Shown: positions 4,469 to 20,000 of the stretch, piece by piece
Position numbering within the stretch: the stretch's first letter is position 1
Layout: each line of letters opens with the position of its first letter
IMG/VR virus record: IMGVR_UViG_3300009068_000031
Coordinates: 57,630-77,629 of that record
From: an uncultured virus (IMG/VR IMGVR_UViG_3300009068_000031)
Lineage: Duplodnaviria; Heunggongvirae; Uroviricota; Caudoviricetes
Length of the DNA: 20,000 nt
Reading direction: 5' to 3' (one strand)
The notes under the pieces: model-generated
What the model was told of the DNA's origin: nothing
Seen by the model: only the letters and a program-made list of their open reading frames with translations
Databases searched by the model: none
Program-made: the position numbers and the translations under genes

Positions 4469-4748
4469 TTCGATTCACATAAGGACAACTCAAAGTGAAT
4501 ATGGTGAGTTCTTTGGCTTCTTCAAAACCAATTTTTATCACATACTCCACTTTGTGTTCATGAGAGCTTTTGATTGTTTTTTCCAAAAAATATCTACTTT
4601 TTAAATTGATTCTAATCCAATTATTGATCTTGTCTTCCATGCCATAATCGAATTTGATTTCCAAATATGTGAAATGCGGCAGTGGTTTTTGAACTTTTCT
4701 AATACCAAAAAAGTTTAAAGGATTGGGTTCTCCAGTTTTCTGCAACAT
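4464..4748 (-). CDS. Hypothetical phage protein
   Basis: 94 aa; TAATG overlap with the VWA gene. Confidence 0.7.
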   Translation of the reverse strand: MLQKTGEPNPLNFFGIRKVQKPLPHFTYLEIKFDYGMEDKINNWIRINLKSRYFLEKTIKSSHEHKVEYVIKIGFEEAKELTIFTLSCPYVNRS

Positions 4749-5986: not shown

Positions 5987-6003
5987 AAGAATCTTTATTT
6001 GTA

Positions 6004-6029
6004 CACAGGGCACTCGAAAATGCCCTGTG
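6004..6029 (-). other. Intergenic stem-loop with UUCG tetraloop
   Basis: CACAGGGCA / TGCCCTGTG form a perfect 9-bp inverted repeat. The - strand RNA is CACAGGGCAUU-UUCG-AGUGCCCUGUG, with no U-tract following. Confidence 0.75.
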
Positions 6030-6040
6030 AATGGTCACAG

Positions 6041-7144
6041 TTAAGCAACCTTTTGTGCGGCAATAACATACTTGCCGTACTTTTCATGAAACTCATCGAA
6101 ACATTTGATACTGTCTGGATCAATCGGTAATTGATATTGCGTAAGAGCAAGTTTAATGCCCATCACAACAATTTCAGTATCGAAATTATCCATAGAAAAT
6201 CTAAGAAATTTATTGACTTTATCATTAAACTTCTTGTCTTTCTTATCACATGCGTCTTTCAGTTCGTAGCAAAGGGAGACTGTTAAGGAATACATGGCAC
6301 TGATTTCTTTAGTCTTCATTTTTTCTACCTTCCCTGACAAAATGTCAGACGGATTTGGTAGGTCCTTAGCCACTTTTCTGTGAGCCATGAATTTTACTGC
6401 TAATCCTTCGCCTACTGCTCCACTAACTAGATCGGCTGTGGTATTCTCATCCACTTCGTCAGACAATAATTCACTGACAAATGCCCAAGATCTTGGAGTT
6501 GCGAACGATCTGCCTGAACTCTTGGGTTCAAAATCGTATAAATCTTTCTTGCTGAATGTTAAGAACCCCACCACATCTTTGTGCATGTTGTTCTGTACAG
6601 CCCACTGAAACCAATCATCAAAATCCACTTTCATTTCTATATGGATAAATCTATTGGCCAATGGCGCAGGCATTCTGTATGTGATACCTCTGTCCGCTTC
6701 TCTATTACCAGCGGCAATAATAACCACATTGTCAGGCAGCCTGTATGTGCCCACTCTTCTGTTTAGGATCAATTGATATGCTGCCGCTTGAACTGATGGT
6801 GCGGCTGAATTCATTTCATCCAAAAACAATATAATTTTTTTGTGTTTTTTAGCAAATTCTTCATTGGGCAGTTCACTTGGGGCGGCCCAAATCATGTTGT
6901 TTTCTTTCATGTTGTAGTATGGAATACCTTTGATATCTGTGGGTTCCCATAGACTTAATCTTATGTCGATCACATGAGCATCAATGCTGGCAGCAATTTG
7001 ATGTACCACATCTGATTTACCAATACCAGGTGCTCCCCATAAAAATAATGGACGTTTTTTGTTGATTGCGTGTGTTATGCTACTTTTAGCATTGTTAGGA
7101 CTGACCTGTCTAACTGCTAAACTGTCTTTGTCTGCTTTGGCCAT
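6041..7144 (-). CDS. MoxR-like AAA+ ATPase
   Basis: Walker A GAPGIGKS, Walker B LFLDE, sensor AAGN, Arg finger PLANRF. AAGGAG SD at 7151-7156; adjacent to the VWA partner. Confidence 0.92.
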   Translation of the reverse strand: MAKADKDSLAVRQVSPNNAKSSITHAINKKRPLFLWGAPGIGKSDVVHQIAASIDAHVIDIRLSLWEPTDIKGIPYYNMKENNMIWAAPSELPNEEFAKKHKKIILFLDEMNSAAPSVQAAAYQLILNRRVGTYRLPDNVVIIAAGNREADRGITYRMPAPLANRFIHIEMKVDFDDWFQWAVQNNMHKDVVGFLTFSKKDLYDFEPKSSGRSFATPRSWAFVSELLSDEVDENTTADLVSGAVGEGLAVKFMAHRKVAKDLPNPSDILSGKVEKMKTKEISAMYSLTVSLCYELKDACDKKDKKFNDKVNKFLRFSMDNFDTEIVVMGIKLALTQYQLPIDPDSIKCFDEFHEKYGKYVIAAQKVA

Positions 7145-9989: not shown

Positions 9990-10378
9990 TAACTGATTTC
10001 CGATCTATCTTTTCCTAATTTGTTCACATTGATGTATCCAGCATCACGTGTGGCGTCCTGTCCTTGATCCTTCAGCACGTTTCTAGTGACTTCTTTAAAC
10101 CAACCTTCCACTATTTCTTCATTGGTTTCACCTTTGTAACCTGCATCTAATAAATCCTCTATGAAAGCATTGTTCCAATCCAGTTCAAAAAATCCATTTC
10201 TGATGTTTTCTTTGTTCACGTGAGTCTCCAACACTGCCACCCAAGGCTTGCCTTCTTTGGTTGCTGCTTCTTTTTCACGCAACAATGCTTGATGTGATTC
10301 GCTTTTGTTTTCTGTTGTGTCTTCTTTTTTAAATATTTTTTTAACTTTATCAAATATTCCCATATCTTTTTTCTCCAT
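9989..10378 (-). CDS. Hypothetical phage protein
   Basis: Start at 10378 (TAATG overlap with the queE stop) or at 10363 (GGAG SD). KPWVAVL...NGFFELDWN motif. Confidence 0.75.
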   Translation of the reverse strand: MEKKDMGIFDKVKKIFKKEDTTENKSESHQALLREKEAATKEGKPWVAVLETHVNKENIRNGFFELDWNNAFIEDLLDAGYKGETNEEIVEGWFKEVTRNVLKDQGQDATRDAGYINVNKLGKDRSEIS

Positions 10379-11238
10379 TATGTACCCCATGCGTTTTTAA
10401 ACAATGGCACCTGTAATCTATCACTGTATCTATATCCCATCTTCATTGCCAGTTCTGCCACTGTTTTATTGTTCATATGATAGACACTTTCTACTCCACC
10501 CACAGGCATCAGATAAACTGATCCTGAGAATCCTGCTTTACGATAATCAGCCACTGCTTGGAATGCCTCATCAGCATCTTCCTTGGTGGCCACCACAAAT
10601 TTCAAATACACATGCCCTACATCTCCATATTCTGCCACCACTTCAGGCAGTATAGCTTCTTCACGTTTTTCTCCGCTCACACTTAATTTTGCACTCACAG
10701 AGAATGATATGGATTCTTTAGTTCTACCATTCTTCTGATTCCATTGAGTCAAATAATCTTTAAAATCTTTGTGTAGTTTTTGTGTGCCATTGGTTTCAAA
10801 AGTGATCTCTTTTAAAGCCTGCATCTTTGCATGTTCCAATACATCTGGATAAGCACGTTGCCAACCCAGCAATGGTTCACCGCCTGTGAATATAAAATGT
10901 TCATCCACCCATTGTTTGTGTGGCAATATTTCCATTGTTCTTTCCACAATAGCATCTGATGTCAGCATGGGAGATAAATCTTTGAATCGAGGATCCCAAG
11001 ATGCATACGAATCACAGCCTGTGTTCACCAATGGCAATTCTTCATAGCTTTTAAAAGGAAATTGTTTGTGCTGTTCAAATACTTTGTCATTCTCATCACT
11101 ACGCATGCCTCGAGGCAAACCAAAGCCAGCACAAGTAAAGTTGCAGCCAAATGTTCTCAAGAACACTGAAGGCACACCCATGTACCTGCCTTCTCCTTGT
11201 ATGCTGTAAAATAATTCTGCTATTTTAATTTTGCTCAT
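10378..11238 (-). CDS. queE: 7-carboxy-7-deazaguanine synthase QueE-like radical SAM enzyme
   Basis: IAELFYSIQGEG..GVPSVFLRTFGCNFTC...CDS, TGGEPLL, ETNGT, SVSAKL, LKFVV, YLMP and RLQV motifs; near folE. Confidence 0.88.
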   Translation of the reverse strand: MSKIKIAELFYSIQGEGRYMGVPSVFLRTFGCNFTCAGFGLPRGMRSDENDKVFEQHKQFPFKSYEELPLVNTGCDSYASWDPRFKDLSPMLTSDAIVERTMEILPHKQWVDEHFIFTGGEPLLGWQRAYPDVLEHAKMQALKEITFETNGTQKLHKDFKDYLTQWNQKNGRTKESISFSVSAKLSVSGEKREEAILPEVVAEYGDVGHVYLKFVVATKEDADEAFQAVADYRKAGFSGSVYLMPVGGVESVYHMNNKTVAELAMKMGYRYSDRLQVPLFKNAWGT

Positions 11239-11405
11239 TATACTAATTCCTCTACCACTCCTAATAATTCTGCCAGTATGAATAAAAATCCAGCAGTAAT
11301 AAAGTTACCAAATATTAAACTAATGCCTGCAATGATTCTAAATGCACTCTTGATTAGTGACACATAGAAATGACCTTTACTGGTGTCTTTAGGCTGTATG
11401 TTCAT
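11238..11405 (-). CDS. Small membrane protein (55 aa, below ORF-track cutoff)
   Basis: MNIQPKDTSKGHFYVSLIKSAFRIIAGISLIFGNFITAGFLFILAELLGVVEELV*. Its stop overlaps the queE start (TAATG), and its end supplies GAGG as the queE SD. Confidence 0.8.
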   Translation of the reverse strand: MNIQPKDTSKGHFYVSLIKSAFRIIAGISLIFGNFITAGFLFILAELLGVVEELV

Positions 11406-11592
11406 GTTTGTTTTCTTTCAAAGGAATTGACTCACATGAATCAATGTAATCTCCTTGGCTGTGATAATCTCTCTTCACTGTTTCTTTGTACAGCACACCA
11501 TCTTTAACTTTGTAAGTGATTAATTCTTGTTTGATAATACCTGTGGTATCACCTCCGAATGCTGCGTAAAATGGTCCTTCTTTATTGGTCAT
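11389..11592 (-). CDS. Hypothetical protein
   Basis: 67 aa; AGGAG SD overlapping the folE stop. Confidence 0.7.
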   Translation of the reverse strand: MTNKEGPFYAAFGGDTTGIIKQELITYKVKDGVLYKETVKRDYHSQGDYIDSCESIPLKENKHEHTA

Positions 11593-11601
11593 CTGTGTCT
11601 C

Positions 11602-12288
11602 CTATCTTGGTGCAAATTGTTGTTGCAGGTTAATATTATCCATAAATTCTTTTTTAGTGCCAGCATCATCTTTGAAAGCACCTTTTAACACAGTGGTCTG
11701 AGTCAATGAACTGTGTGCCATTATGCCTCGGTTTTCACAACAGCCATGTGTGGCTTGTATGTAAACACCTATGTTTCTGCTGCCAGTGGCCATTTCAATT
11801 TCATGTGCTATGTCATTGCACAAAGACTCTTGCAGTGTGCCTCTTCTAGCACACCATTGTGCTATTCTTGTGTATTTGCTCAATCCTATCACTTTGCCAT
11901 TGGGTATGATTCCAATATACGCCACACCGCTCACTGGTTGATGATGATGACTGCAGATAGATTTTAATTCACTACGCACCACCAACATGCCTGTGTAAGC
12001 ATTTCCTCCCACATTGGGAAATGCTGTGGCATCGGGTCTAGATTCATATCTTCCGCTCATGATTTCTGTCAAATACATTTTGGCCAATCTATGTGCTGTG
12101 TTTTTACTATTAGGATCATTGTCAGTATCAATCACAAGACTGTTTAGCACAGATCGGAATGATTCTGTTAATTCTTGTTCCAGCAGAGACAATTCATCTT
12201 TTTCGATGTAGGCTGAAATATTGTCATCAGCATGATAGTTCACGCCAGCCGCAATCAGTCTTTGTTTAATCTTTTCTGATACTTTCAT
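11602..12288 (-). CDS. folE: GTP cyclohydrolase I (FolE)
   Basis: DPN...TAHRLAKMY, SICSHH, GLSK..RI, LQE, HGCCENRG motifs; AAGGAG SD at 12293-12298. Confidence 0.95.
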   Translation of the reverse strand: MKVSEKIKQRLIAAGVNYHADDNISAYIEKDELSLLEQELTESFRSVLNSLVIDTDNDPNSKNTAHRLAKMYLTEIMSGRYESRPDATAFPNVGGNAYTGMLVVRSELKSICSHHHQPVSGVAYIGIIPNGKVIGLSKYTRIAQWCARRGTLQESLCNDIAHEIEMATGSRNIGVYIQATHGCCENRGIMAHSSLTQTTVLKGAFKDDAGTKKEFMDNINLQQQFAPR

Positions 12289-12308
12289 TATACTCCTTAT
12301 ATTGTATT

Positions 12309-12337
12309 ATTTTAACAGATTTGTTCCAGTTTGTCAA
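12309..12337 (-). promoter_or_regulatory. Sigma70-type promoter for folE-queE-rnh
   Basis: TTGACA-17 nt-TAAAAT with TG extended -10, embedded in the last codons of the upstream gene. Confidence 0.8.
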
Positions 12338-12929
12338 TGATTTGTGCCAAAACAATTTGGTTTCCTTCATCATTGTAATGATTAATTTCTCCTCTGTAGT
12401 TAGGCCAGATCATACTGAAGTCCAACAGATTCTGTTCCTCAACAAAATGGTTACTGATACCAAAATTATCTATGTGTAAACTGGTGATTTGCTCCAGTTT
12501 TCTGTTGATATCTCTGCGTATCAATCTGTAGATGTCTTTTTGGTATTGATCATCATAGTGATACTTGAACCAATTTTTAGCAGTGTCTAAACTTTTATTG
12601 AACCAACTGTTGCGAGATTCAATGTCATTCCATATGAGATCACAATCTTTGTGCAGTCCTTGTTTGTGTATGGGATGAACGGGAGTGTGTACTCTGCTGG
12701 GACTGGTATGACACACAATCACACAATCATAGTCATGCTGCCACCAAGGATTTTCTTTGGTAAAGTTTAGCAGTTGTCTTAATATTTTATATTCGCCCAC
12801 ACCTGCCTGAGCCAAATTGGTCACATCATGTTGTTGAGCCAACTGAGCGGGCCATCCAGCAAGGCCATTGGGCCACTCACAAGCAAAACTATCACCAATG
12901 ATTAGGATTTTTTTTGATTTTTTATCCAT
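12312..12929 (-). CDS. SGNH/GDSL hydrolase-like protein
   Basis: IIGDSFA (block I), NLAQAGVG (block II), INHYNDEGN (block V His). Confidence 0.75.
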   Translation of the reverse strand: MDKKSKKILIIGDSFACEWPNGLAGWPAQLAQQHDVTNLAQAGVGEYKILRQLLNFTKENPWWQHDYDCVIVCHTSPSRVHTPVHPIHKQGLHKDCDLIWNDIESRNSWFNKSLDTAKNWFKYHYDDQYQKDIYRLIRRDINRKLEQITSLHIDNFGISNHFVEEQNLLDFSMIWPNYRGEINHYNDEGNQIVLAQIIDKLEQIC

Positions 12930-13729
12930 GGTATGTATTTTTCCACAATCGTTTTGTGATATTCTGTATTGTAATGTTCTTTGTCATGCAGCAAATATTT
13001 TTGAGGATCAATACCATTGTCCAACATATATTGCTCAACAGTTTTTTCTGCTACTGTGGTATTTTTTAATGCACCGTAATATTCCAAACTCTTGGGCCAT
13101 TTCAATCTATTCATAAAATTAAACACATAAAGTTTGGCATTGTTTTCAGCACAGATTCTATCCCAAGCAAACACATTCAATAAAAAATCACGTCTTTCCA
13201 AATGTGTGTTCAATTCAAAAAATAATTTTATCTCCATAAATGTGTTTTTTCTTACGTCTGGTTGTTGCAATCCATCTGTTTCAGAAATTTTTAAACCTGG
13301 AAACTTTTCATAATCTTCTGCTGTGGGTTTGTTGTACAATTGCACTCTGCCTTCTTTGACCAATAGATCCATATACTTTTTTACTGTGGGTGTGCTTTCC
13401 ACACATTCATGCACAAAATAATCCAAAGGCAGTGCTTCATCTGTGAGTTTCTCATCAAAAGCCAACACAAATCTATTCAATGGAGCCAAACAAAGAAAAA
13501 CTTCATCGGTGTCTGGAAATGTGTTAAACATGTGTTTCATCCAATCAGTGTACATTCTATTAGTTGTTCCAGCATGTGCATAGATACTCACGGGTTTATC
13601 GTTCACTGTGTTGTAAATTTCAGCATAGTTGTTATCATTCCAATAGGTATAACTGCCTGGACCTGTTTTGTTAGGCACAGTGACATATCCACAAGTGTGA
13701 CTGTCTCCTATGAAAAGTGCTCTGCTCAT
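12902..13729 (-). CDS. SGNH/GDSL hydrolase-like protein
   Basis: FIGDSHTCG (block I), AHAGTTN (block II), DKEHYN (DxxH, block V). Confidence 0.75.
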   Translation of the reverse strand: MSRALFIGDSHTCGYVTVPNKTGPGSYTYWNDNNYAEIYNTVNDKPVSIYAHAGTTNRMYTDWMKHMFNTFPDTDEVFLCLAPLNRFVLAFDEKLTDEALPLDYFVHECVESTPTVKKYMDLLVKEGRVQLYNKPTAEDYEKFPGLKISETDGLQQPDVRKNTFMEIKLFFELNTHLERRDFLLNVFAWDRICAENNAKLYVFNFMNRLKWPKSLEYYGALKNTTVAEKTVEQYMLDNGIDPQKYLLHDKEHYNTEYHKTIVEKYIPWIKNQKKS

Positions 13730-14103
13730 TTTTTATAATTTCCTTTGTGAGGGATCACATGACGCACACCACCCCTAGGATCTTCCATGTCACCCTTGCG
13801 TCTTGGAATCAAATGAACATGCGGATAAGGAACAGTTTGACCTGCTGCCTCGCCCATGTTGATACCTATGTTGTAGCCGTCAATCAACCCTTTGGCAATA
13901 TTTTCATTGCCAATTTTCAATGCTAATTCAAAACATTTCACAATCATATTTTGACTGGCTTGTTTGGGTACCAACAATGCATGTCCTTCTGTCACAGGAT
14001 ATCCATCCTCATACCACACACAATCTTTCAAATCATATATCACTTTGGTCCAAGGAGTTCTGCCTTCTTTTTGAGCTTGATTCAAAGTGTCAATTTTTTC
14101 CAT
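13726..14103 (-). CDS. HIT family nucleotide hydrolase
   Basis: DGYPVTEGHALLVPK and GYNIGINMGEAAGQTVPYPHVHLIPRRKGD motifs. Confidence 0.9.
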   Translation of the reverse strand: MEKIDTLNQAQKEGRTPWTKVIYDLKDCVWYEDGYPVTEGHALLVPKQASQNMIVKCFELALKIGNENIAKGLIDGYNIGINMGEAAGQTVPYPHVHLIPRRKGDMEDPRGGVRHVIPHKGNYKK

Positions 14104-14104
14104 A

Positions 14105-14560
14105 CTACCATTGCTCCCAAGGAAACACTATCCAACGTGGATCTTCCAGTTTGTTGATTTCATAACCTTTGTAATCTATATCTTTGTAGGTGCTCACTGT
14201 GTTGTGCAATATCACAGCAAACTTTAATCTTTCTGGTTTGCCAAAGTTATTCATAATATAATTAAATGTGGCACCTGTATCATTGATATCATCCACTATC
14301 AATACTCTTTTTTGCCAAGCATATACTTTTTCCAATGTGTGTAAATCAGGAGTATCAGCATGATCTCGTAAACTTACATTTAACACATGATGAGGAACAT
14401 CCAATTTGTGTGACAAATAGATAGCAGGAATACATCCTCCTCTGTTTAATCCTAATATTACCTGAGGTTGCCATTGTTGTTCAGTCAATTGCTGATGTAT
14501 ATTCAGCAGAGCTGCACGCATCTGGATCATGGTAAAATAATTTTTATTGGCTGTTTCCAT
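14105..14560 (-). CDS. Type I phosphoribosyltransferase (Gpt/xanthine-guanine PRT-like)
   Basis: GLNRGGCIPA, PRPP loop VLIVDDINDTGAT, C-terminal WIVFPWE. Confidence 0.9.
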   Translation of the reverse strand: METANKNYFTMIQMRAALLNIHQQLTEQQWQPQVILGLNRGGCIPAIYLSHKLDVPHHVLNVSLRDHADTPDLHTLEKVYAWQKRVLIVDDINDTGATFNYIMNNFGKPERLKFAVILHNTVSTYKDIDYKGYEINKLEDPRWIVFPWEQW

Positions 14561-14561
14561 A

Positions 14562-14933
14562 TTAAAAAGGCATTTTCAGTTGCATTTTATTGTCATAATC
14601 ATCTATCACAATATTGTAAACATTTTTAAATTTTTGAAAAGCAATATCCAATGACGGATACAACTCACACATTTCTTTTATTTTGTGCATTTCAGGCATG
14701 ATATCCTCAAACATAATAGGCAGTTTGTAATCCTCAAAGTTTATACCTTTCATTGCATCTGCTTCAAAATCTATGCCTGTGGTAGTAACACCATTGCCTG
14801 ATCCACCAAATCCATATGGCACGCTCACTGTGCTGGCCACAATGTTATTTGTGCCCACATTTGCTTGATAGTTTATATCTACTTTATACGTTGTGCTGTC
14901 TGGTTGATTTTGTTCTAAAGTTTTATTTTCCAT
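14562..14933 (-). CDS. Hypothetical protein
   Basis: Start re-called to MENKTLE at 14933, overlapping the glycosyltransferase end. Low-complexity N-half; C-terminal MCELYPSL.IAFQKFK.VY motif. Confidence 0.7.
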   Translation of the reverse strand: MENKTLEQNQPDSTTYKVDINYQANVGTNNIVASTVSVPYGFGGSGNGVTTTGIDFEADAMKGINFEDYKLPIMFEDIMPEMHKIKEMCELYPSLDIAFQKFKNVYNIVIDDYDNKMQLKMPF

Positions 14934-16014
14934 TTGTAATCCTTTGGTAAAGTTGTTTGCCACTAAAAAAGTTTTCTGCCAATGATATTTTTTGTTTGTG
15001 TACCAATGGAGCATACTTTTTGTAGTTGATCATGTAGTCATCTATTCTTGCTTTTAACAAATCTTTGTGTTTCTTATACAGTTCAAAAGATTCTGTCCAT
15101 TCCGAAGGATATTTGAATTCTTCTTGAGCCATTTCTTTGTAACTTAAACGATCAGGAATCATTGGAATAACTCCTAATACTGCACCTTCATACCAACTGA
15201 TTCCTAATGTTTCTTGTAAATTAGCACTGAAAATCAATTTGGCTTCTGCTAAAAGATTGTGATAGTCATTTTTTGACTGGCAACGATCCAAACAAGTGAC
15301 AAATTCATACTGTGGCATTTCTTTTGCCAAATCTTGAAATATGTTGTGTTGTTTTTCCGGAGCCAATCTATGCGGGAAAAGAATAATATTCTTTTTTTCA
15401 ATATTTTTATAACCAGTCAAGTCAGCATCCAAATATTCCATAGGCCATCCCGATCTCACTATTTTGCCTGTGTGAAACATTTCTGCTACTGTTTCTTTGT
15501 CAGCCAGTCTGCCTAGATCCATCAAATTGTGTAAGAACATATCAATATGAAAATCAGTGGCAAAGTAATTGTGATCAAATGATTCAAACATGCTGCGTTC
15601 AGCCAGACGCACCCAAGGTTTATCACCTATCAGTCTGCCCAAAAAGTCTTGTGGATCATATGATCCTGCGTGCCACATGCCACCTATTTTAATTTTTACA
15701 TTTAATAATTCTGCCATGTACTTGAGTTGCAGTACTGTGGGATTCCAAGCATCAGTGTATAAGAAATAATCACCATCTTTGATATCTCCCGCACAGAACA
15801 TTTCAGCAATCTGTTCTAATTGTCTGCTTTTGTACATGTTGGTGAATCCAAAGTTTAAAAAAGCACCCGGGGTGGTACTTTTCACAGCATCTCCTCCGCT
15901 GATCACTTGGATTTCATTATTGGTGTGTCTTTTTAATTGAATGGGTAGATATTTTTTCCATTGTTTGGTATATCTAGTTTCTACTTCTTCTAGATCCACA
16001 ATGTAAATCTTCAT
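14923..16014 (-). CDS. GT-B fold glycosyltransferase (GT4-like, retaining)
   Basis: ILFPHRLAPEKQ (GRL..EK-like), ETLGISWYE (E-x7-E), G..P.IPDRLSYKE. Start re-called to MKIYIVDLE at 16014. Confidence 0.85.
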   Translation of the reverse strand: MKIYIVDLEEVETRYTKQWKKYLPIQLKRHTNNEIQVISGGDAVKSTTPGAFLNFGFTNMYKSRQLEQIAEMFCAGDIKDGDYFLYTDAWNPTVLQLKYMAELLNVKIKIGGMWHAGSYDPQDFLGRLIGDKPWVRLAERSMFESFDHNYFATDFHIDMFLHNLMDLGRLADKETVAEMFHTGKIVRSGWPMEYLDADLTGYKNIEKKNIILFPHRLAPEKQHNIFQDLAKEMPQYEFVTCLDRCQSKNDYHNLLAEAKLIFSANLQETLGISWYEGAVLGVIPMIPDRLSYKEMAQEEFKYPSEWTESFELYKKHKDLLKARIDDYMINYKKYAPLVHKQKISLAENFFSGKQLYQRITNGK

Positions 16015-16022
16015 GGCCCGCC

Positions 16023-16424
16023 CTAGTTGATTGTTATGGATGAATTGGCTGCCCACGTCATTGTGGCACCGTTCTCACCATCTTCGCTCACGTCTATTGT
16101 GACTTCTCTATTGGGATATCTTGAATTGATCTGTTGATAAAGATCAGCGCCAATCATTTCACAACTTTTATAATCCAACTCTAATGTGCCTTTGCCATAT
16201 AAGTTTTCCAACCATCTTTTAAACTGTATAAACTCAATGTCTCGGTCATCATGAAATACTTCAATAGCCACTCGAAAATGAAATATGTGTCTGTGAGGAT
16301 AACCCAAAAAACTCACATCATATTCGTCACCAGTTTTTAATTTTGGATCTGTTAATGCTGCAGGATATTTGTGCGTGCCTTCTCTGCGAAATGTTACCCA
16401 AATTTTAGATTTCATAATGCTCAT
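16023..16424 (-). CDS. QueD-paralog T-fold protein, DpdL-like
   Basis: EGTH, LGYPHRHIF (LxxxHRHxF in place of QueD CxxxHGH), IEF, SCE and VSEDGENGA motifs. Confidence 0.75.
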   Translation of the reverse strand: MSIMKSKIWVTFRREGTHKYPAALTDPKLKTGDEYDVSFLGYPHRHIFHFRVAIEVFHDDRDIEFIQFKRWLENLYGKGTLELDYKSCEMIGADLYQQINSRYPNREVTIDVSEDGENGATMTWAANSSITIN

Positions 16425-16446
16425 GTGTTTCAGTATTTAGGTTTAT

Positions 16447-16475
16447 AGTATAACAACCTTTTCAATGCTTGTCAA
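16447..16475 (-). promoter_or_regulatory. Sigma70-type promoter for the T-fold/GT/PRT/HIT/SGNH unit
   Basis: TTGACA-17 nt-TATACT with TG extended -10. The -35 lies in the last codons of the upstream gene. Confidence 0.82.
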
Positions 16476-16983
16476 TGTCCACAGGATAATCGCCCTTGTA
16501 TTCACTCCAATCTGTATAGGTTTTTTTGGTCATCAATTTGTCCAAATCATGTGTCCAAACTCCTGTATTGGTAGCACCCCACGTGACGTCATCCAGTTTG
16601 ATCACTGTGTTTGAGTTGAATGTTTTGATGTTGGGTATTTTCACAGATATCATATTGATAAAATGATGGTTCTTATGCCAATTCATTCTTGATACCATTT
16701 CTGCATATTGCACATCATAATCCAATGTGACCCAAAGACCCAAATCTAATAATTTGTTAATAATATTGTTCCAATCTCTCCAATCTTCTTCTGTCTCTGG
16801 AGTAAAACTTTGACTGGTGCCTAAATACACGTGTGCCACAGCAGTTTTTTGAGTATACCTCACAATGTCCACCACGTTTTGTACACCCACCACAAATAAA
16901 GTTATTTGATGTTTCATAGCAGTGTTCTCCACTTCTTTGCCTATGAAAAATTTTACTTTTTTTCTCGATTGTGTGTCCAACAT
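16462..16983 (-). CDS. Hypothetical alpha/beta protein in the deazaguanine cluster
   Basis: Start re-called to MLDTQS at 16983 (TAATG overlap). FFIGKEVENT...TLFVVG...HVYLGTSQSF...KLDD...TNTGVW...YTDWSEY motifs. Confidence 0.8.
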   Translation of the reverse strand: MLDTQSRKKVKFFIGKEVENTAMKHQITLFVVGVQNVVDIVRYTQKTAVAHVYLGTSQSFTPETEEDWRDWNNIINKLLDLGLWVTLDYDVQYAEMVSRMNWHKNHHFINMISVKIPNIKTFNSNTVIKLDDVTWGATNTGVWTHDLDKLMTKKTYTDWSEYKGDYPVDIDKH

Positions 16984-17891
16984 TATTTTCTCCAATCTAT
17001 ATACCCTCTGGCATAGCCATTTTTTCTATTTGTAGCATCTGCAAATGCATTGTTCCACTCTGTGCTTCTGCTGTAACCTTTGGTCCAAAAATTGGACACA
17101 TCTAGTTTGCCTGCAGAGATTAATTCCACTGCTTCACGCATGCACTCTATAAATTTTTTATTTCTAGGACTTGGAAAGCCTACTGTTACAGCATTCCATA
17201 ATAAATCAGCAAAATTAGTGCGAATAGATTCTGTTTTTTCAGCAGCCAGTATCAACAATGCTTCAGTGTTGAACATGTTCTTGTCAAACACCTCTGATCT
17301 GTTGTTCAAATCTATAATAACATCAAACACGCCTTCAGCATTGTGAGTGAGTTTATCTCCCCAAAACTGTTTGTTGTGATTGCCCAACACAGTGATATCA
17401 AAATGATAATTTTTTATTTTTAGATAGGTGTAAACCACATAGGATAAAAATCCACTGCCTATCAGCAGCAGTCTGCTGTTGTAGTTGGCTTTGTGAGCAA
17501 TGGCAGTTTCAAATTGTTTGATCACATTAATGCCACATGCCACAGGTTCCACAATGTATTTGGGATCTGCTGTGGGAACTTTAACATAAGTTTCAAAATC
17601 ACAATTGTAAATATCAGCATAAGCAGGTTCACCTCTGGTAGCCACATGATCTCCCACCTGAACATCTCGCACATGAGCACCCACTTGTGTGACCTGAGCC
17701 AATCCTTCATGACCTTGCATGTTTAATGGTAATGTTTTGAATTTGCCCAACATCATGTCCACATCACTGCGACATACTCCTGTCATGATATTTTTTACTT
17801 GAATCTGATTATCTTTCACTGCAGGAATGTCAATGGTTCCTTCATGAAACATGCCATCTCCTTTGGTGTATAACAGTTTAGTTTCAGTCAT
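16983..17891 (-). CDS. Zn-dependent medium-chain dehydrogenase (threonine/sorbitol DH-like)
   Basis: GVCRSD, GHEG, VGDHV, EPVAC and Rossmann IGSGFLS motifs; no four-Cys structural Zn lobe. Confidence 0.88.
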   Translation of the reverse strand: MTETKLLYTKGDGMFHEGTIDIPAVKDNQIQVKNIMTGVCRSDVDMMLGKFKTLPLNMQGHEGLAQVTQVGAHVRDVQVGDHVATRGEPAYADIYNCDFETYVKVPTADPKYIVEPVACGINVIKQFETAIAHKANYNSRLLLIGSGFLSYVVYTYLKIKNYHFDITVLGNHNKQFWGDKLTHNAEGVFDVIIDLNNRSEVFDKNMFNTEALLILAAEKTESIRTNFADLLWNAVTVGFPSPRNKKFIECMREAVELISAGKLDVSNFWTKGYSRSTEWNNAFADATNRKNGYARGYIDWRK

Positions 17892-18771
17892 TGATTAAAT
17901 TATGAATCCACACATCATACTGCTTGTGTTGATTCCAAAACTCTTCATGGTTAATATTATTGAAAACATCTTGAATCATTGCAGCATAAGCTGATTCAGG
18001 ACATAATCCTAGTTCAAAACTTTTAATTAATTTTTCTCTTTTATAACAGTGCAGTGCTCTGTCATCTTTGTCCATACTGCGCCAATCAGCAGTAAGTTTG
18101 AATGTTTTTTTACCGTTATTGAACACCATTTCAGCCCAATCATCCACATCATATGTGCCATCTAAATTTACTGCACCATATTCTGTATCAGTAAGATCAC
18201 TTAATTTCCAATTTTGTTTACGATTGGAAGAAACTATTTGATATTGAGAATATGTATCAGGATTCAACCAGATGAACATACTCAATAAATGTGGCATAAG
18301 ATCTCTGCTGACTCCACCAAATGATAATTTCTTATCAGTAAACCAGCTGCCTGGTGCTGGCACTCTGTTGCGATTGATCCAGTTAATGTGTACTTCTTCA
18401 GCATCATCTATTCTAATACGCATTTCTTCTTCCACTGTGCGCCACATATTGTTTTTCATCATGATAAATTTAGCGTTTGGATATGTGAGTTGAAGACTCT
18501 GCCATCTTTTAGAATTAAGCACTCCTGGTTTTTCTACAAATACCACTCTACTGTGTGGTGCAACTGTTTGAGCTATTGAATCATGTGTATAATTAGGAGT
18601 GCATATGAACACTGCATCCAATTTGGGATGAGCCAATAGAGCTGTTTTTAAATTTGTGAATGTGGCTTGTTTGTTTTGATCAGGATCCACTGTGAATACT
18701 GTATGACCCAACTGTGTTAAGACTCTAACATACAATTGTCCAATACCCAATCCTATAACCAATGTTTTCAT
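17884..18771 (-). CDS. Gfo/Idh/MocA family oxidoreductase
   Basis: VIGLGIG, ICTPNYTH, VEKP, GGVSRDLMPH and VDD motifs. Confidence 0.88.
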   Translation of the reverse strand: MKTLVIGLGIGQLYVRVLTQLGHTVFTVDPDQNKQATFTNLKTALLAHPKLDAVFICTPNYTHDSIAQTVAPHSRVVFVEKPGVLNSKRWQSLQLTYPNAKFIMMKNNMWRTVEEEMRIRIDDAEEVHINWINRNRVPAPGSWFTDKKLSFGGVSRDLMPHLLSMFIWLNPDTYSQYQIVSSNRKQNWKLSDLTDTEYGAVNLDGTYDVDDWAEMVFNNGKKTFKLTADWRSMDKDDRALHCYKREKLIKSFELGLCPESAYAAMIQDVFNNINHEEFWNQHKQYDVWIHNLIND

Positions 18772-18962
18772 GCTTTTAATTGTTTTCTGTATTCTTCTAT
18801 CTGTGTTTTGATTGCCAGTTTAATTTTCTTATAATTCTTTAATAATGCTTTACTCTCCCAACTTCTATCATGTTCTCGCTCTTGTTCCATTTCTTCAGTT
18901 TTTCTATGATAGTAATCAAACTCATGTTCTAATTTCTTTAAACTTTTATTTTTCTTACTCAT
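18768..18962 (-). CDS. Small coiled-coil protein (DUF465-like spacing)
   Basis: Start re-called to MSKKNK at 18962 (GAGGAGGT SD at 18968-18975). 64 aa, with LKNYKKIKLAIKTQI. Confidence 0.7.
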   Translation of the reverse strand: MSKKNKSLKKLEHEFDYYHRKTEEMEQEREHDRSWESKALLKNYKKIKLAIKTQIEEYRKQLKA

Positions 18963-18963
18963 A

Positions 18964-20000
18964 TTATACCTCCTCAAATAAGTTAGAAAACTGTGTTGAA
19001 GCATTCACTGTTTTTTTGCCTGTGGCGCCTCTGGTACCTATGATACTCATCCAAAATCTGCTGTATTCCTCAATCACTGCTTCTGCTGTGTCTCTGTTGT
19101 CTGTGGCAAATATTGCTTCCACTATGTCTTTGAATGCCACTTTATCAAACTTTTCTTCCACCAACATGCGTGGAGTTAATCCTGCATCATACTGTCTGTT
19201 GGCTTCTTGCACAGCATTGATGTGTGTCCAAACATTGTGTGCCATTTGTAAGGTATAACTGAATGAATCCCAAGATGTTTTGGGATCACCGCCCACTTTG
19301 TTTTTATCTCCTGGAGCATAACAAGTGACATCTTTCAACTGTAATCTTTTACTGATAGGACTGTCTTGAAAATTGTCAAATATCTTTTCTTGTAACACAG
19401 CATCTCTAAATGCTCTGGTGTCACCGGCATATTTTTTATCATCTATGCTGGCAGCCATTCTATATGACCATTTTTGTTTGTCTCTGACATCCACTTCTGT
19501 GTAAATTTGTCCATTGGCTGATGCTAAGAAAGGTGAAGCACAATCAAATGACACAGTAAAGTTTGGATTGTGATATTTTCTTACTGCTCTTTGGATGTCT
19601 GTCAATAGTACTGCCCATTCCAGTTTGGATGTGCCTAAAAAGTGCATCCAATCATGAATGCCTTTTTCTAATAAACCATCAAATCTTAATGCCACTAATC
19701 TTTTCAATATAAGATGCACATCACACATGTTCTGACCACCCATTGCCCAACCATTAAAGTGAGTTGTGGGATATTTTTTAGGATCGCAGTAATCTTTCAT
19801 CTGCTGATACCAATCATCTGCTTGTTGAAAGTTTTCACCTTGCAGCACATTTAAAAACTTACAAGCACCTGTTCTAGTCTTCATGAAGTAATCATTATTG
19901 ATTCTTGTGCCATCCACTGCTTCCTGATAGGAGTTGATATTGCTGGCTTTGGCACCTTCTGGAGAACGTGAAACCCATGCTGGAATATCCAATATCATAC
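18964..20000 (-). CDS. dpdA: tRNA-guanine-transglycosylase-fold protein, DpdA-like (5' end outside window)
   Basis: TGT-order motifs LDIP, LNVLQG, GWAMGG, HFLG, SFDCASP. The frame is open to the window edge and the first catalytic DSGG motif is not in view. Co-located with folE, queE and the T-fold gene. Confidence 0.75.
   Translation of the reverse strand, partial: MILDIPAWVSRSPEGAKASNINSYQEAVDGTRINNDYFMKTRTGACKFLNVLQGENFQQADDWYQQMKDYCDPKKYPTTHFNGWAMGGQNMCDVHLILKRLVALRFDGLLEKGIHDWMHFLGTSKLEWAVLLTDIQRAVRKYHNPNFTVSFDCASPFLASANGQIYTEVDVRDKQKWSYRMAASIDDKKYAGDTRAFRDAVLQEKIFDNFQDSPISKRLQLKDVTCYAPGDKNKVGGDPKTSWDSFSYTLQMAHNVWTHINAVQEANRQYDAGLTPRMLVEEKFDKVAFKDIVEAIFATDNRDTAEAVIEEYSRFWMSIIGTRGATGKKTVNASTQFSNLFEEV

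What the first reader, a model, noticed from the sequence alone, without database searches (positions are those of the whole stretch)
10378..20000. Phage 7-deazaguanine cluster interleaved with a glycosyltransferase, sugar oxidoreductases, PRTase, HIT and SGNH enzymes: candidate new DNA hypermodification
Seen: one co-oriented run with overlapping or abutting genes: DpdA/TGT-like, small coiled coil, Gfo/Idh/MocA, Zn-MDR, unknown, T-fold, GT4-like, unknown, PRT, HIT, SGNH, SGNH, FolE, two small ORFs, QueE. No QueC, QueF or Gat-QueC is in the window. Established: FolE-QueD-QueE make CDG from GTP, and phage DpdA exchanges guanine in DNA for 7-deazaguanine derivatives (dPreQ0, dG+, dPreQ1, dADG, dCDG, dDG and others) as an anti-restriction measure. 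I know of no described phage deazaguanine carrying a sugar. Inference: the pathway stops at CDG or 7-deazaguanine and the base is further decorated, with the oxidoreductases making an unusual donor and the GT attaching it.
Basis: partly seen in the sequence, partly recalled or inferred. Interest (0 to 1): 0.9.

Follow-up and report, generated by a model that had tools for sequence, protein, structure and literature searches.

The report
Sugar-transferase-linked 7-deazaguanine DNA modification cluster
An uncultured freshwater giant phage carries the known gene set for swapping the guanine of its DNA for 7-deazaguanine, and a sugar-adding enzyme is locked inside that set here and in several cultured phages, so the final DNA base may carry a sugar that has not been described.

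Summary
The gene run is real: 16 co-oriented, abutting minus-strand genes at 10378-19998. The core is a known kind, the QueC-less "DpdL-type" 7-deazaguanine system of Cui et al. 2023 (PMC10516641):
- a DpdA3-type transglycosylase, cut by the contig end (TGT fold, Z 18-19);
- a DpdL T-fold protein with the published LxxxHRHxF signature;
- FolE and QueE.

The nearest cultured relative is Pseudomonas jumbo phage PA5oct, whose homologues that paper already lists as DpdA3 and DpdL.

Not in that paper is a GT4-type glycosyltransferase (fold Z 20-24, invariant EX7E). It sits beside DpdL in 73 of 73 related metagenomic loci. It also sits beside DpdL in PA5oct, ACP17, Phosso, BUDD/X1, BCSR5 and BUCT-ZZ01, whatever the DpdA subfamily. 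A purine phosphoribosyltransferase and an unknown 177-aa protein are also near-constant.

The Gfo/Idh/MocA and Zn-MDR oxidoreductases, HIT and the two SGNH-like genes are variable accessories. Relatives carry other sugar-tailoring genes in their place.

A sugar on the deazaguanine is therefore a well-supported inference, but it is unproven. phiST makes plain dDG without this transferase.

This scan has flagged the same pairing on other genomes. I found no paper describing it.

The parts
18964..19998 (-). DpdA3-type DNA guanine transglycosylase, C-terminal 344 of about 487 residues (the contig end cuts the N-terminus with the DSGG motif)
   Evidence: Full-length homologues are 487 aa and up to 99% identical. 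AF2 model of P0001 has pLDDT 92.2. The Foldseek top 50 are all TGT, E about 4e-7. VIA Z 18.9 to T. maritima TGT, 303 residues aligned. 36% identical to PA5oct QCG76197.1, which Cui et al. list as DpdA3.
18768..19004 (-). 78-aa basic protein (pI 9.7), function unknown; variable
   Evidence: No family hit. Homologues in 13 of 31 related loci with 8 kb of flank. pI.
17884..18771 (-). Gfo/Idh/MocA NAD(P)-dependent sugar-type oxidoreductase; accessory
   Evidence: PF01408 5.4e-10 and PF22725 1.1e-6, both over the cut-off. Present in 7 of 31 related loci.
16983..17891 (-). Zn-dependent medium-chain dehydrogenase/reductase; accessory, always paired with the Gfo gene
   Evidence: ADH_N 3.2e-10; phrog_2640 1.4e-11. 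Present in 7 of 31 related loci, the same loci as Gfo.
16462..16995 (-). 177-aa conserved protein of unknown fold; constant companion of DpdA3 and DpdL in this clade
   Evidence: Present in 31 of 31 related loci. Homologue in ACP17 just upstream of its DpdA (E 7.6e-12). No hit in Pfam, PHROGs, PDB profile or Atlas.
16023..16424 (-). DpdL: QueD-like T-fold protein, the predicted 7-carboxy-7-deazaguanine decarboxylase
   Evidence: L40-x3-H44-R45-H46-x-F48 is invariant in 13 sequences and equals the LxxxHRHxF signature in PMC10516641 section 16. tblastn: phiST DpdL locus 33%, 1e-8; ACP17 55%; PA5oct 56%; Phosso 68%.
14923..16014 (-). GT4-type (GT-B fold) glycosyltransferase; the start is most likely the ATG at 16014, not the GTG at 16056
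   Evidence: AF2 pLDDT 90.5. Foldseek: BshA E 6.9e-10. VIA Z 24.2 to sucrose-phosphate synthase and 23.6 to BshA. E268-x7-E276 is invariant in 38 sequences and in ACP17, PA5oct, Phosso and BUDD homologues. Homologues start at the residue matching 16014.
14562..15014 (-). Unknown small protein (homologues are 106-130 aa, so the real start is probably internal); variable
   Evidence: No family hit. Present in 13 of 31 related loci. Homologue lengths.
14105..14560 (-). Small purine (6-oxopurine type) phosphoribosyltransferase
   Evidence: PF00156 1.8e-14. NCBIfam xanthine PRT 1.9e-11, below the cut-off. Best solved relative is 1vdm purine PRT, 8.5e-15, followed by archaeal GpT and E. coli XGPRT. 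Present in 30 of 31 related loci. PA5oct homologue is 27% identical.
13726..14103 (-). HIT-family nucleotide hydrolase/transferase; frequent but not constant
   Evidence: PF01230 7.6e-12. PDB HIT proteins from 2.2e-8; in that alignment the first His of the triad is Tyr and the other two are kept. Present in 22 of 31 related loci.
12902..13729 (-). 275-aa virus-only protein with SGNH-like motifs (GDSH at the start, DxEH near the end); accessory
   Evidence: S10, N85, D249 and H252 invariant and G54 nearly so, in 16 sequences. Only weak Pfam SGNH/GDSL hits, in 2 and 1 of 16 members. Atlas: virus-only unnamed clusters. Present in 16 of 31 loci.
12312..12929 (-). 205-aa protein with an N-terminal GDS motif, distantly related to the previous gene; rare accessory
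   Evidence: G12-D13-S14 invariant. hhalign to the 275-aa family: 67%, E 5.4e-5 over 71 columns. Present in 4 of 31 loci.
11602..12288 (-). GTP cyclohydrolase I (FolE)
   Evidence: PF01227 1.9e-40; phrog_2197 8.8e-45.
11389..11592 (-). 67-aa ORF, unknown
   Evidence: Conserved in several related loci by tblastn.
11238..11405 (-). 55-aa hydrophobic ORF (GRAVY +0.94), probably a membrane protein
   Evidence: Homologues in related loci.
10378..11238 (-). QueE-like radical SAM enzyme (7-carboxy-7-deazaguanine synthase)
   Evidence: phrog_2076 5.3e-50 over residues 2-285. NCBIfam QueE models 3e-13 to 2e-9, all below their cut-offs. Syntenic with PA5oct QueE QCG76203.1.

Best explanation
The run encodes a QueC-less, DpdL-type system that replaces guanine in the phage's DNA with a 7-deazaguanine.

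Proposed steps:
1. FolE, a QueD encoded elsewhere in the genome, and QueE turn GTP into 7-carboxy-7-deazaguanine (CDG).
2. DpdL is predicted to decarboxylate CDG to 7-deazaguanine.
3. The DpdA3-type transglycosylase exchanges guanine in DNA for that base.
4. The GT4 glycosyltransferase, welded to DpdL in this clade and in six cultured lineages, most likely adds a hexose-type sugar from a nucleotide sugar to the deazaguanine. It could act on the free base before insertion or on the base in DNA.
5. The Gfo/Idh/MocA and Zn-MDR oxidoreductases and the SGNH-like proteins tailor the sugar or its donor. This tailoring layer differs from phage to phage.
6. The small purine phosphoribosyltransferase most plausibly recycles the guanine released by base exchange into GMP. 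That removes the competing base and refills the GTP pool.

Shown here: gene identities, folds, motifs and linkage. Established elsewhere: FolE-QueD-QueE chemistry, dDG in phiST DNA, and DpdA as the inserting enzyme family. Inferred: DpdL activity (also unproven in the source paper), every statement about the sugar, and the role of the PRT.

My odds: core deazaguanine DNA system about 0.85; a sugar on the final DNA base about 0.35-0.4.
For: Core system:
- TGT fold of the DpdA-like protein.
- D102-S103-G105 and D295 invariant, G104 nearly so, in 57 homologues.
- PA5oct homologues are named DpdA3 and DpdL in Cui et al., Data S1.
- DpdL signature present.
- FolE and QueE present.
- No QueC in the record or over cut-off in 5 related records.
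- Canonical QueD found about 40 kb away in 2 of 5 related records, and inside the cluster in L029.
- PA5oct DNA resists five G-containing restriction enzymes (passages of PMC12191111).

Glycosyltransferase:
- GT-B/GT4 fold.
- EX7E invariant.
- 31 of 31 DpdA-centred loci with 8 kb of flank carry it.
- 73 of 73 GT-centred loci have DpdL within 2 kb upstream, and 60 of 60 have the DpdA-like gene upstream.
- It abuts DpdL or DpdA in PA5oct, ACP17, Phosso, BUDD and BUCT-ZZ01, and lies within about 3-4 kb of DpdL in BCSR5. Gene orders differ, and both DpdA2 and DpdA3 occur.
- 18 of 18 phage records that match the BUDD transferase also have DpdL.

Sugar tailoring: relatives carry a DegT-type aminotransferase (10 loci), an SDR epimerase/dehydratase (2), a B12 radical SAM (3) and 2OG oxygenases, in the cluster region between the DpdA-like gene and the exonuclease.

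Precedent: HuiG glycosylates the 2-amino group of a 7-deazaguanine base (PMC7439116, passages). A pterin glucosyltransferase is among the fold matches (5zer, Z 20.0).

PRT: nearest solved relatives are purine and xanthine-guanine PRTs.
Against: - No chemistry: nothing here shows what is in the DNA.
- phiST has DpdL and DpdA3 but no such transferase, and its DNA holds plain dDG with all G replaced. The transferase is therefore not needed to make or insert the base.
- 10 of 28 DpdL-bearing phage records gave no match to either transferase query. RHph_I1_18 was inspected and has none within 9 kb.
- 7-Deazaguanine has no hydroxyl group. The sugar would need an N- or C-glycosidic bond, which is unusual for a GT4 enzyme (own knowledge).
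- The two metagenomic sets overlap and belong to one clade, so the 31/31 and 73/73 counts are not independent events.
- DpdL's activity was not shown in E. coli by its describers.
- The GT's fold matches do not single out base- or DNA-modifying enzymes. T4 alpha-glucosyltransferase scores Z 18.1, below many sugar and lipid transferases.
- Five Xanthomonas/Erwinia phage records have a 24%-identical transferase in a GlmS/deacetylase setting, with no DpdL match.
Confidence: 0.4

Rival explanations
1. Plain dDG system. The DNA carries unadorned 7-deazaguanine as in phiST. The glycosyltransferase, oxidoreductases and SGNH-like proteins act on something else, such as a virion or host protein, a cell-envelope glycan or another nucleotide, and stay nearby only because this is an early-gene block for host takeover.
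For: phiST makes dDG without a transferase. The oxidoreductases, HIT and SGNH-like genes come and go among relatives. The cluster region also collects unrelated cargo in relatives: ClpP, peptide deformylase, a sulfate permease, a subtilase and ThyX. A 24%-identical transferase occurs with no DpdL match in PhiXhv-12 and four similar records.
Against: The transferase keeps its place beside DpdL or DpdA through rearrangements and across DpdA2 and DpdA3 lineages. Every record that matches the BUDD transferase has DpdL (18 of 18). No such constancy holds for the true cargo genes.
Confidence: 0.3
2. Nucleotide-level route. The phosphoribosyltransferase turns CDG or 7-deazaguanine into a ribonucleotide, as in tubercidin and toyocamycin biosynthesis. 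After reduction and phosphorylation, 7-deaza-dGTP is built into DNA by the polymerase. DpdA3 only tops up or repairs, and the transferase acts on a nucleotide or on DNA.
For: The PRT is present in 30 of 31 related loci and in PA5oct and is of the purine type. The QueC-less tubercidin clusters combine CDG genes with a PRT and a decarboxylase (passage of bioRxiv 10.64898/2026.04.15.718813). A HIT nucleotide enzyme follows the PRT in 22 of 31 loci. An earlier scan note on another genome raised the same route.
Against: A TGT-fold enzyme is kept in all these loci. Cui et al. found a DpdA in every deazaguanine phage and argue for post-replicative insertion. ACP17, BUDD and Phosso showed no PRT match within the stretches examined. 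No kinase or dGTP-destroying enzyme was seen in the window.
Confidence: 0.15
3. Small-molecule product. The transferase glycosylates the free deazaguanine base, or a pterin intermediate, to give a soluble huimycin-like or pterin-glycoside metabolite. This would be a stored or detoxified form, or an inhibitor of the host, and not a DNA base.
For: HuiG-type glycosylation of a free 7-deazaguanine is known. The best fold matches act on small acceptors: BshA, LmbT, GlgM and the pterin glucosyltransferase 5zer. In Phosso the DpdL-transferase pair sits about 170 kb from the DpdA3 gene.
Against: QueE and a DNA transglycosylase are always present in the same genomes. A phage has little known use for a free deazapurine glycoside (own judgement). 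No export or resistance gene is evident in the window.
Confidence: 0.1

Closest known systems
DpdL/DpdA3 system for 2'-deoxy-7-deazaguanosine (dDG) of Cellulophaga phage phiST (FolE, QueD, QueE, DpdL, DpdA3; Cui, Hutinet et al., NAR 2023, PMC10516641)
   Same: QueC-less pathway; FolE and QueE; a DpdL with the LxxxHRHxF signature (33% identical to the phiST locus); a distant TGT-fold transglycosylase that Pfam's TGT model does not catch at E<=1.
   Different: phiST has a 159-aa unknown protein (CGPG_00066), not a glycosyltransferase, between dpdA3 and dpdL. It has no PRT in the described block. Its DpdA3 is not found by tblastn with the 487-aa family at E<=1e-5. Here QueD is not in the cluster.
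Pseudomonas jumbo phage PA5oct (Wroclawvirus) locus EST35_0316-0322
   Same: Same order of DpdA3, GT, DpdL, PRT and QueE, followed by RNase H/5'-3' exonuclease and a MoxR-type ATPase. Identities: DpdA3 36%, GT 45%, DpdL 56%, PRT 27%, QueE 28%. Its DNA resists G-site restriction enzymes.
   Different: PA5oct lacks the Gfo/MDR pair, the 177-aa protein, HIT, the SGNH-like genes and FolE within the block; FolE and QueD lie elsewhere. Its DNA base has not been identified in the papers I read.
Acidovorax phage ACP17 dpdA2-dpdL pair, tested in E. coli by Cui et al.
   Same: FolE, a homologue of the 177-aa protein, DpdA, GT (36% identical), DpdL (55%) and QueE, in one run.
   Different: Its DpdA is of the DpdA2 subfamily. 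Cui et al. expressed dpdA and dpdL without the gene between them and saw no dDG. The genome is a 156-kb T4-like type.
Huimycin glycosyltransferase HuiG of Kutzneria albida (PMC7439116)
   Same: A glycosyltransferase in a FolE/QueD/QueE cluster that puts a sugar on a 7-deazaguanine base. The huimycin family transferases carry the GT4 N-terminal domain PF13439.
   Different: A bacterial secondary-metabolite pathway with QueC (preQ0 core) and a free small-molecule product, with no transglycosylase.
T4 alpha- and beta-glucosyltransferases (DNA 5-hydroxymethylcytosine glucosylation)
   Same: GT-B fold phage enzymes that sugar-coat a modified DNA base. T4 AGT matches the model at Z 18.1.
   Different: Their acceptor is a hydroxymethyl pyrimidine. 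The match is weaker than to GT4 enzymes of small-molecule and glycan pathways. No hmC or hmU synthesis gene was seen in the window.

Membership tests
TGT/DpdA superfamily (DpdA3 subfamily) | TIM-barrel fold of tRNA-guanine transglycosylases | tested here: met
   Model of the full-length homologue P0001 (pLDDT 92.2). Foldseek top 50 are all TGT. VIA Z 18.9, rmsd 4.4, 303 residues aligned to 2ash; 18.3 to archaeosine TGT 1j2b.
TGT/DpdA superfamily (DpdA3 subfamily) | Catalytic aspartates (the Asp of the DSGG(F/Y)Q motif and a second, nucleophilic Asp; motif recalled from the TGT literature) | tested here: inconclusive
   D102, S103, G105 and D295 are invariant and G104 and Q107 at least 90% conserved in 57 homologues. 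I did not check on the superposition that D295 matches the TGT nucleophile. The DSGG part lies outside the window.
TGT/DpdA superfamily (DpdA3 subfamily) | Match to Pfam TGT (PF01702) at its cut-off | tested here: not met
   No hit at E<=1 for 5 full-length homologues, nor in the record. A profile of 57 sequences finds no TGT in the PDB. The published DpdA3 was likewise detected only by HHpred.
TGT/DpdA superfamily (DpdA3 subfamily) | Homology to a protein already assigned to DpdA3 | tested here: met
   36% identity over 84% of the query, E 9e-79, to PA5oct EST35_0316 = QCG76197.1. That protein stands in the DpdA3 column of Data S1 of PMC10516641.
tRNA-guanine transglycosylase proper | Conserved Cys/His zinc site in the C-terminal part (recalled) | tested here: not met
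   No cysteine column is invariant or at least 90% conserved among the 57 aligned homologues.
DpdL (QueD-like predicted CDG decarboxylase) | LxxxHRHxF in place of QueD's CxxxHGH | tested here: met
   L40 GYP H44 R45 H46 I F48 in the window protein. L40, H44, R45, H46 and F48 are invariant in 13 sequences. The signature is as written in PMC10516641 section 16.
DpdL (QueD-like predicted CDG decarboxylase) | Homology to named DpdL proteins | tested here: met
   56% identical to PA5oct EST35_0318 = QCG76199.1 and 55% to the ACP17 gene listed as DpdL. 33% identical, 1e-8, to the phiST locus beside the MazG-like gene.
DpdL (QueD-like predicted CDG decarboxylase) | T-fold (PTPS/QueD-like) structure | not tested
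Pfam PTPS does not match it, and phmmer against the PDB gave nothing significant.
DpdL (QueD-like predicted CDG decarboxylase) | Decarboxylation of CDG to 7-deazaguanine | not testable with these tools
   A prediction of Cui et al.; their E. coli test gave no dDG.
GT4 (retaining GT-B glycosyltransferases) | Two-Rossmann-domain GT-B fold | tested here: met
   Model pLDDT 90.5. Z 24.2 (6kih), 23.6 (6n1x BshA), 22.1 (PimB'), 21.2 (PimA), each over about 300-320 residues. Foldseek E 6.9e-10 to BshA.
GT4 (retaining GT-B glycosyltransferases) | EX7E motif in the C-terminal domain (motif recalled) | tested here: met
   E268 and E276 are invariant in 38 sequences. The matching pair is invariant in 10 sequences including ACP17, PA5oct, Phosso and BUDD.
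GT4 (retaining GT-B glycosyltransferases) | Match to Pfam Glycos_transf_1 at its cut-off | tested here: not met
   18.9 bits against a cut-off of 26.4, E 0.0011. No PHROG or NCBIfam match.
QueE (7-carboxy-7-deazaguanine synthase) | Match to QueE models | tested here: inconclusive
   phrog_2076 'QueE-like' 5.3e-50 over the full length. All five NCBIfam QueE models score far below their cut-offs, best 49.8 against 206 bits. Syntenic with the PA5oct protein listed as QueE.
SGNH/GDSL hydrolases (the two genes at 12312-13729) | Conserved Ser, Gly, Asn and His blocks, and a family-model match | tested here: inconclusive
   275-aa family: S10, N85, D249 and H252 invariant and G54 nearly so. Pfam SGNH/GDSL hits only at 0.036-0.35 in 1-2 of 16 members, and no PDB profile hit. 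205-aa family: GDS invariant, later blocks unclear.

The most novel reading that the evidence does not exclude
The virion DNA of this aquatic phage clade, and of the cultured phages PA5oct, ACP17, Phosso, BUDD/X1, BCSR5 and BUCT-ZZ01, carries a glycosylated 7-deazaguanine. The sugar is attached by the DpdL-linked GT4 enzyme. Its identity is diversified from phage to phage by swappable tailoring genes: Gfo/Idh/MocA plus Zn-MDR and SGNH-like genes here; DegT aminotransferase, SDR epimerase, B12 radical SAM and 2OG oxygenases in relatives. This would parallel the glycan diversity on 5-hydroxymethylcytosine in T-even phages.
Probability: 0.35. Interest if true: 0.85.

Novelty: new variant of a known kind. 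Interest (0 to 1): 0.65.

Why it matters
All sugar-bearing DNA bases named in the papers I saw are pyrimidines (5-hydroxymethylcytosine, 5-hydroxycytosine). A sugar on a deazapurine would be a new class of DNA hypermodification, with new enzymology: glycosylation of a base that has no hydroxyl group.

It would also bear on three open points:
- why dpdA plus dpdL of ACP17 gave no product in E. coli, since the gene between them was left out;
- what the "modified G" of PA5oct is, the base sensed by END nucleases;
- how a very abundant group of aquatic large phages (more than 7000 homologues each of the DpdA3 and GT genes in metagenome proteins) evades restriction.

The question can be tested directly, because six cultured phages carry the pair.

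Tried and rejected
- Sequence-family searches for the TGT-like protein found nothing: Pfam, PHROGs, NCBIfam, phmmer and a 57-sequence profile against the PDB. Only the fold search identified it.
- megablast of the cluster against phage genomes: no match.
- The 177-aa protein has no hit in Pfam (16 members), PHROGs, a PDB profile or the Atlas (best score 0.77, below any useful level). It is unrelated by hhalign to the Phosso 'glycosylase' or to PA5oct EST35_0320.
- Atlas search of the 275-aa protein gave only unnamed virus clusters.
- Complex prediction of GT with DpdL returned 'no answer' (score 0.00, controls not run). It says nothing either way.
- The search for related loci with the single ACP17 transferase returned only ACP17 itself.
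- Net charge and pI of the GT (6.4) and of DpdA3 (7.2) do not tell DNA-binding from non-binding.
- Metatranscriptome contigs of four lake-water RNA runs hold near-identical pieces of the DpdA3, FolE, QueE/small-ORF and HIT genes. RNA libraries can contain DNA, and uncovered parts prove nothing, so I draw no conclusion on expression.
- I considered a pterin-glycoside pathway (FolE + T-fold + GT, like cyanobacterial biopterin glucoside; fold match 5zer). I set it aside because QueE and a DNA transglycosylase are always present.
- Four DpdL phages without a transferase match (Bakedbeans, Ahp1_CNU-2021, D479, MA9V-3) were not inspected gene by gene.

Full report
WHERE THE WINDOW LIES. The window is the last 20 kb of a 77,629-base IMG/VR virus record that CheckV rates about 20% complete. 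The rest of the record holds baseplate and tail genes, a 4895-codon ORF and an island of radical SAM genes. By run labels, near-identical DNA occurs in freshwater and lake metagenomes: 14 runs hold at least half of the sampled words, and two of those may be the source. megablast finds no phage genome. By protein similarity and synteny, the nearest cultured relative is Pseudomonas jumbo phage PA5oct.

THE OBSERVATION. Sixteen ORFs on the minus strand run from 19998 down to 10378, with gaps of -92 to +37 nt. They continue into a 133-aa protein, a 5'-3' exonuclease and, further on, a MoxR-type ATPase, as in PA5oct.
- Family scans confirm the Gfo/Idh/MocA oxidoreductase, the Zn-MDR (N-terminal domain), the PRT, HIT and FolE and a QueE-like radical SAM enzyme (phrog_2076, 5.3e-50).
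- The two 'SGNH' genes have only motif-level support.
- No QueC is present in the record.

THE TRANSGLYCOSYLASE. The first ORF gave no family hit at all.
- Homologues are 487 aa long, so the contig end removes the first 143 residues. The family is large: 7098 of 8000 scored candidates pass E<=0.001, and 984 cluster representatives do.
- An alignment of 57 diverse members has invariant D102, S103, G105 and D295, with G104 nearly so, inside a consensus GDSGGFQ. From memory, this is the TGT active-site motif.
- The AlphaFold model of the 99%-identical P0001 (pLDDT 92.2) matches only tRNA-guanine transglycosylases in Foldseek's top 50 (E about 4e-7). VIA-align gives Z 18-19 over about 300 residues to bacterial, archaeal and mouse TGTs.
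- The PA5oct homologue (36% identity, E 9e-79) is QCG76197.1, which Cui et al. 2023 list as DpdA3 in their Data S1 (supplement read).

THE T-FOLD GENE IS DpdL. The 133-aa protein carries L40-GYP-H44-R45-H46-I-F48, invariant in 13 relatives. Section 16 of PMC10516641 gives LxxxHRHxF as the mark that separates DpdL, the predicted CDG decarboxylase, from QueD's CxxxHGH. tblastn finds the DpdL loci of phiST (33%, 1e-8), ACP17 (55%), PA5oct (56%) and Phosso (68%), 28 phage records in all.

The core of the cluster is therefore the published QueC-less route. FolE, QueD and QueE make CDG, DpdL is predicted to make 7-deazaguanine, and DpdA inserts it. In phiST this gives DNA in which dDG replaces all dG (section 15). 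A canonical QueD is missing from the window and from the 77-kb record. It lies about 40 kb from the cluster in 2 of 5 related records and inside the cluster in locus L029.

THE GLYCOSYLTRANSFERASE. Pfam gives only a sub-threshold Glycos_transf_1 hit.
- The model (pLDDT 90.5) is a GT-B enzyme of GT4 type. Foldseek gives E 6.9e-10 to BshA. The search over all PDB representatives gives Z 24.2 (sucrose-phosphate synthase), 23.6 (BshA), 22.3 (LmbT), 21.2 (PimA), 20.0 (a pterin glucosyltransferase, 5zer) and 18.1 (T4 alpha-glucosyltransferase).
- E268-x7-E276, the EX7E motif of this family as I recall it, is invariant in 38 homologues and in the ACP17, PA5oct, Phosso and BUDD proteins. It looks like a working enzyme.
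- Homologues show that the start is the ATG at 16014.

LINKAGE IN CULTURED PHAGES.

| Phage | Gene order |
|---|---|
| PA5oct | DpdA3 - GT - DpdL - two small genes - PRT - QueE |
| ACP17 | QueD - FolE - homologue of the 177-aa protein - DpdA2 - GT - DpdL - QueE |
| Phosso | DpdL abuts GT; DpdA3 lies about 170 kb away |
| BUDD | GT - DpdA2 - DpdL - QueE |
| BUCT-ZZ01 | GT 22 nt from DpdL |
| BCSR5 | GT within about 3-4 kb of DpdL |

- With the BUDD transferase as query, 18 of 18 matching records have DpdL.
- With the window's transferase as query, 17 of 22 do. The other five (PhiXhv-12, -15, -16, Ep026, Ep032; 24% identity) sit beside GlmS and a BshB-like deacetylase and look like a different branch.
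- Conversely, 10 of 28 DpdL records show no such transferase. These are the five phiST-group records, RHph_I1_18 (inspected), and Bakedbeans, Ahp1_CNU-2021, D479 and MA9V-3 (not inspected).

LINKAGE IN METAGENOMIC LOCI.
- Among 80 IMG/VR loci found with the DpdA3 alignment, 31 have at least 8 kb downstream. All 31 carry the 177-aa gene, DpdL and the transferase. Counts for the rest: PRT 30, FolE 26, HIT 22, QueE 18 (within 8 kb), the 275-aa gene 16, the Gfo/MDR pair 7, the 205-aa gene 4.
- Among 80 loci found with the transferase alignment, 73 have at least 1.5 kb upstream and all 73 have DpdL within 2 kb. All 60 with at least 6 kb upstream have the DpdA-like gene, even where it is only 34-45% identical.
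- The two sets overlap and are one clade, so these are not independent events.
- One short locus, L068, has the DpdA3 gene followed directly by HIT and the exonuclease, with no transferase, DpdL or QueE in the 3.8 kb available.

THE VARIABLE LAYER. In the cluster region between the DpdA-like gene and the exonuclease, relatives carry genes that the window lacks:
- a DegT/DnrJ-type sugar aminotransferase (10 loci);
- 2OG-Fe(II) oxygenases (one family in 14 loci, plus others);
- a B12-binding radical SAM (3 loci) and an SDR epimerase/dehydratase (2);
- a class III aminotransferase (4), a YhhQ/Vut_1 transporter (4) and an HhH-GPD domain protein (6);
- plain cargo such as ClpP and peptide deformylase.

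The window's own Gfo/Idh/MocA + Zn-MDR pair and its SGNH-like genes belong to this swappable layer. That fits enzymes which vary a sugar.

WHAT THE EXTRA GENES DO IS INFERENCE. The tight, rearrangement-proof pairing with DpdL argues that the transferase works on the deazaguanine. I cannot tell whether it acts on the free base or on DNA.

Precedents:
- HuiG glycosylates the 2-amino group of a 7-deazaguanine base in huimycin (passages of PMC7439116).
- Huimycin-family transferases carry the GT4 domain PF13439 (passage of bioRxiv 10.64898/2026.04.15.718813).
- From memory, queuosine in animal tRNA is mannosylated and galactosylated.

Against:
- phiST needs no transferase for dDG.
- 7-Deazaguanine offers no hydroxyl group.
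- The near-invariant Asp of the LD-x-P motif (D147) may correspond to the TGT aspartate that reads the N1/N2 edge. This is recalled and not checked on the model. If it holds, it argues against a sugar on N2 at the time of insertion.

The PRT's closest solved relatives are small purine and xanthine-guanine PRTs. I favour salvage of the guanine that base exchange releases. The tubercidin pathway (CDG + PRT + decarboxylase) keeps a nucleotide-level route open.

LITERATURE.
- Cui et al. 2023: I read the abstract, sections 15-17, passages and Data S1. The paper has no occurrence of 'glycosyltransferase' or 'phosphoribosyl'. Its authors expressed ACP17 dpdA and dpdL without the gene between them and saw no dDG, noting that other enzymes may be needed.
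[quoted passage not shown] In the passages I saw, mass spectra are named only for phages F8 and 14-1, not for PA5oct.
- Three searches and a search for 'DpdL' listed no paper whose title or abstract describes a sugar-bearing deazaguanine in phage DNA or this transferase. Subscription journals are outside the library.

EARLIER NOTES OF THIS SCAN. After I had reached this reading, a look-up showed eight earlier notes on other genomes. Seven name a glycosyltransferase within DpdL-type clusters. One stresses a kinase fusion and a nucleotide-level route. They are unchecked AI notes. My counts above are my own.

VERDICT. The core is a new member of a known kind. The transferase-linked form is a new variant whose product is unknown. 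The sugar-bearing base is plausible (about 0.35-0.4) and can be tested in cultured phages.

Noticed in passing
L003:481-10163 (record C1:38481-48163) and window 866-2014 (+): An island of eight radical SAM genes, plus a ninth at window 866-2014 that carries an HMPTM-type N-terminal zinc ribbon (PF23545, 5e-12). Two are full-length 'twitch domain' radical SAM proteins (NF033640, 2.4e-96 and 1.8e-116). A class III aminotransferase, a 2OG oxygenase and an SDR-like gene follow at C1:51359-54636. This could be a second modification or peptide-maturation pathway.
   Followed up: partly
L001:12242 to L002:7929 (record C1:12242-26929): A single 4895-codon ORF among the tail and baseplate genes, with CBM_5_12 and FG-GAP hits. 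Probably a giant fibre or host-recognition protein.
   Followed up: no
window 4748-7144 (-): A MoxR-type AAA ATPase (367 aa) next to a DUF2201 metallopeptidase/VWA protein (421 aa). The ATPase is 48% identical to the PA5oct virion-associated ATPase and is syntenic with it.
   Followed up: no
window 2021-3169 (-): A 382-aa protein with the N-terminal domain of the Bordetella phage major tropism determinant (Mtd_N, 1.3e-9). I did not look for a diversity-generating retroelement.
   Followed up: no
L068:2098-4570: One related contig has the DpdA3-like gene followed directly by HIT, a DUF6071 protein and the exonuclease. The transferase, DpdL, PRT, FolE and QueE are all missing. Either the cluster was lost or it was moved.
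   Followed up: no
L021:6835-7437 and three other loci: A YhhQ/Vut_1 transporter homologue (2.5e-24) inside the cluster of some relatives. From memory, YhhQ is the importer of queuosine precursors. Cui's table has a YhhQ column for phages.
   Followed up: no
L010:16135-16530 and five other loci: A 131-aa HhH-GPD (base-excision glycosylase superfamily) domain protein between the transferase and the PRT in six relatives (9.4e-6, just over the cut-off).
   Followed up: no
L004:15416-15934 (PA5oct EST35_0320): The 172-aa PA5oct gene between DpdL and the PRT matches part of PHROG 540, 'nucleotide-sugar epimerase' (1.7e-8, residues 1-75). It is unrelated to the window's 177-aa protein.
   Followed up: partly
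L089:6864-10098 (Xanthomonas phage PhiXhv-12): A 24%-identical GT4-like transferase sits with GlmS and a BshB-like deacetylase and without deazaguanine genes in the 19 kb shown. This is a separate phage sugar pathway.
   Followed up: partly
L090:9405-10229 (Rhizobium phage RHph_I1_18): In this transferase-less DpdL cluster, a macro-domain (Appr-1-p processing) protein follows DpdL, and a dUTPase follows DpdA3.
   Followed up: no
window 10378-20000: Contigs of four lake-water metatranscriptome runs hold near-identical pieces of the DpdA3, FolE, QueE/small-ORF and HIT genes, with 0-2 differences over 151-591 bases. This is consistent with expression in nature but does not prove it.
   Followed up: partly
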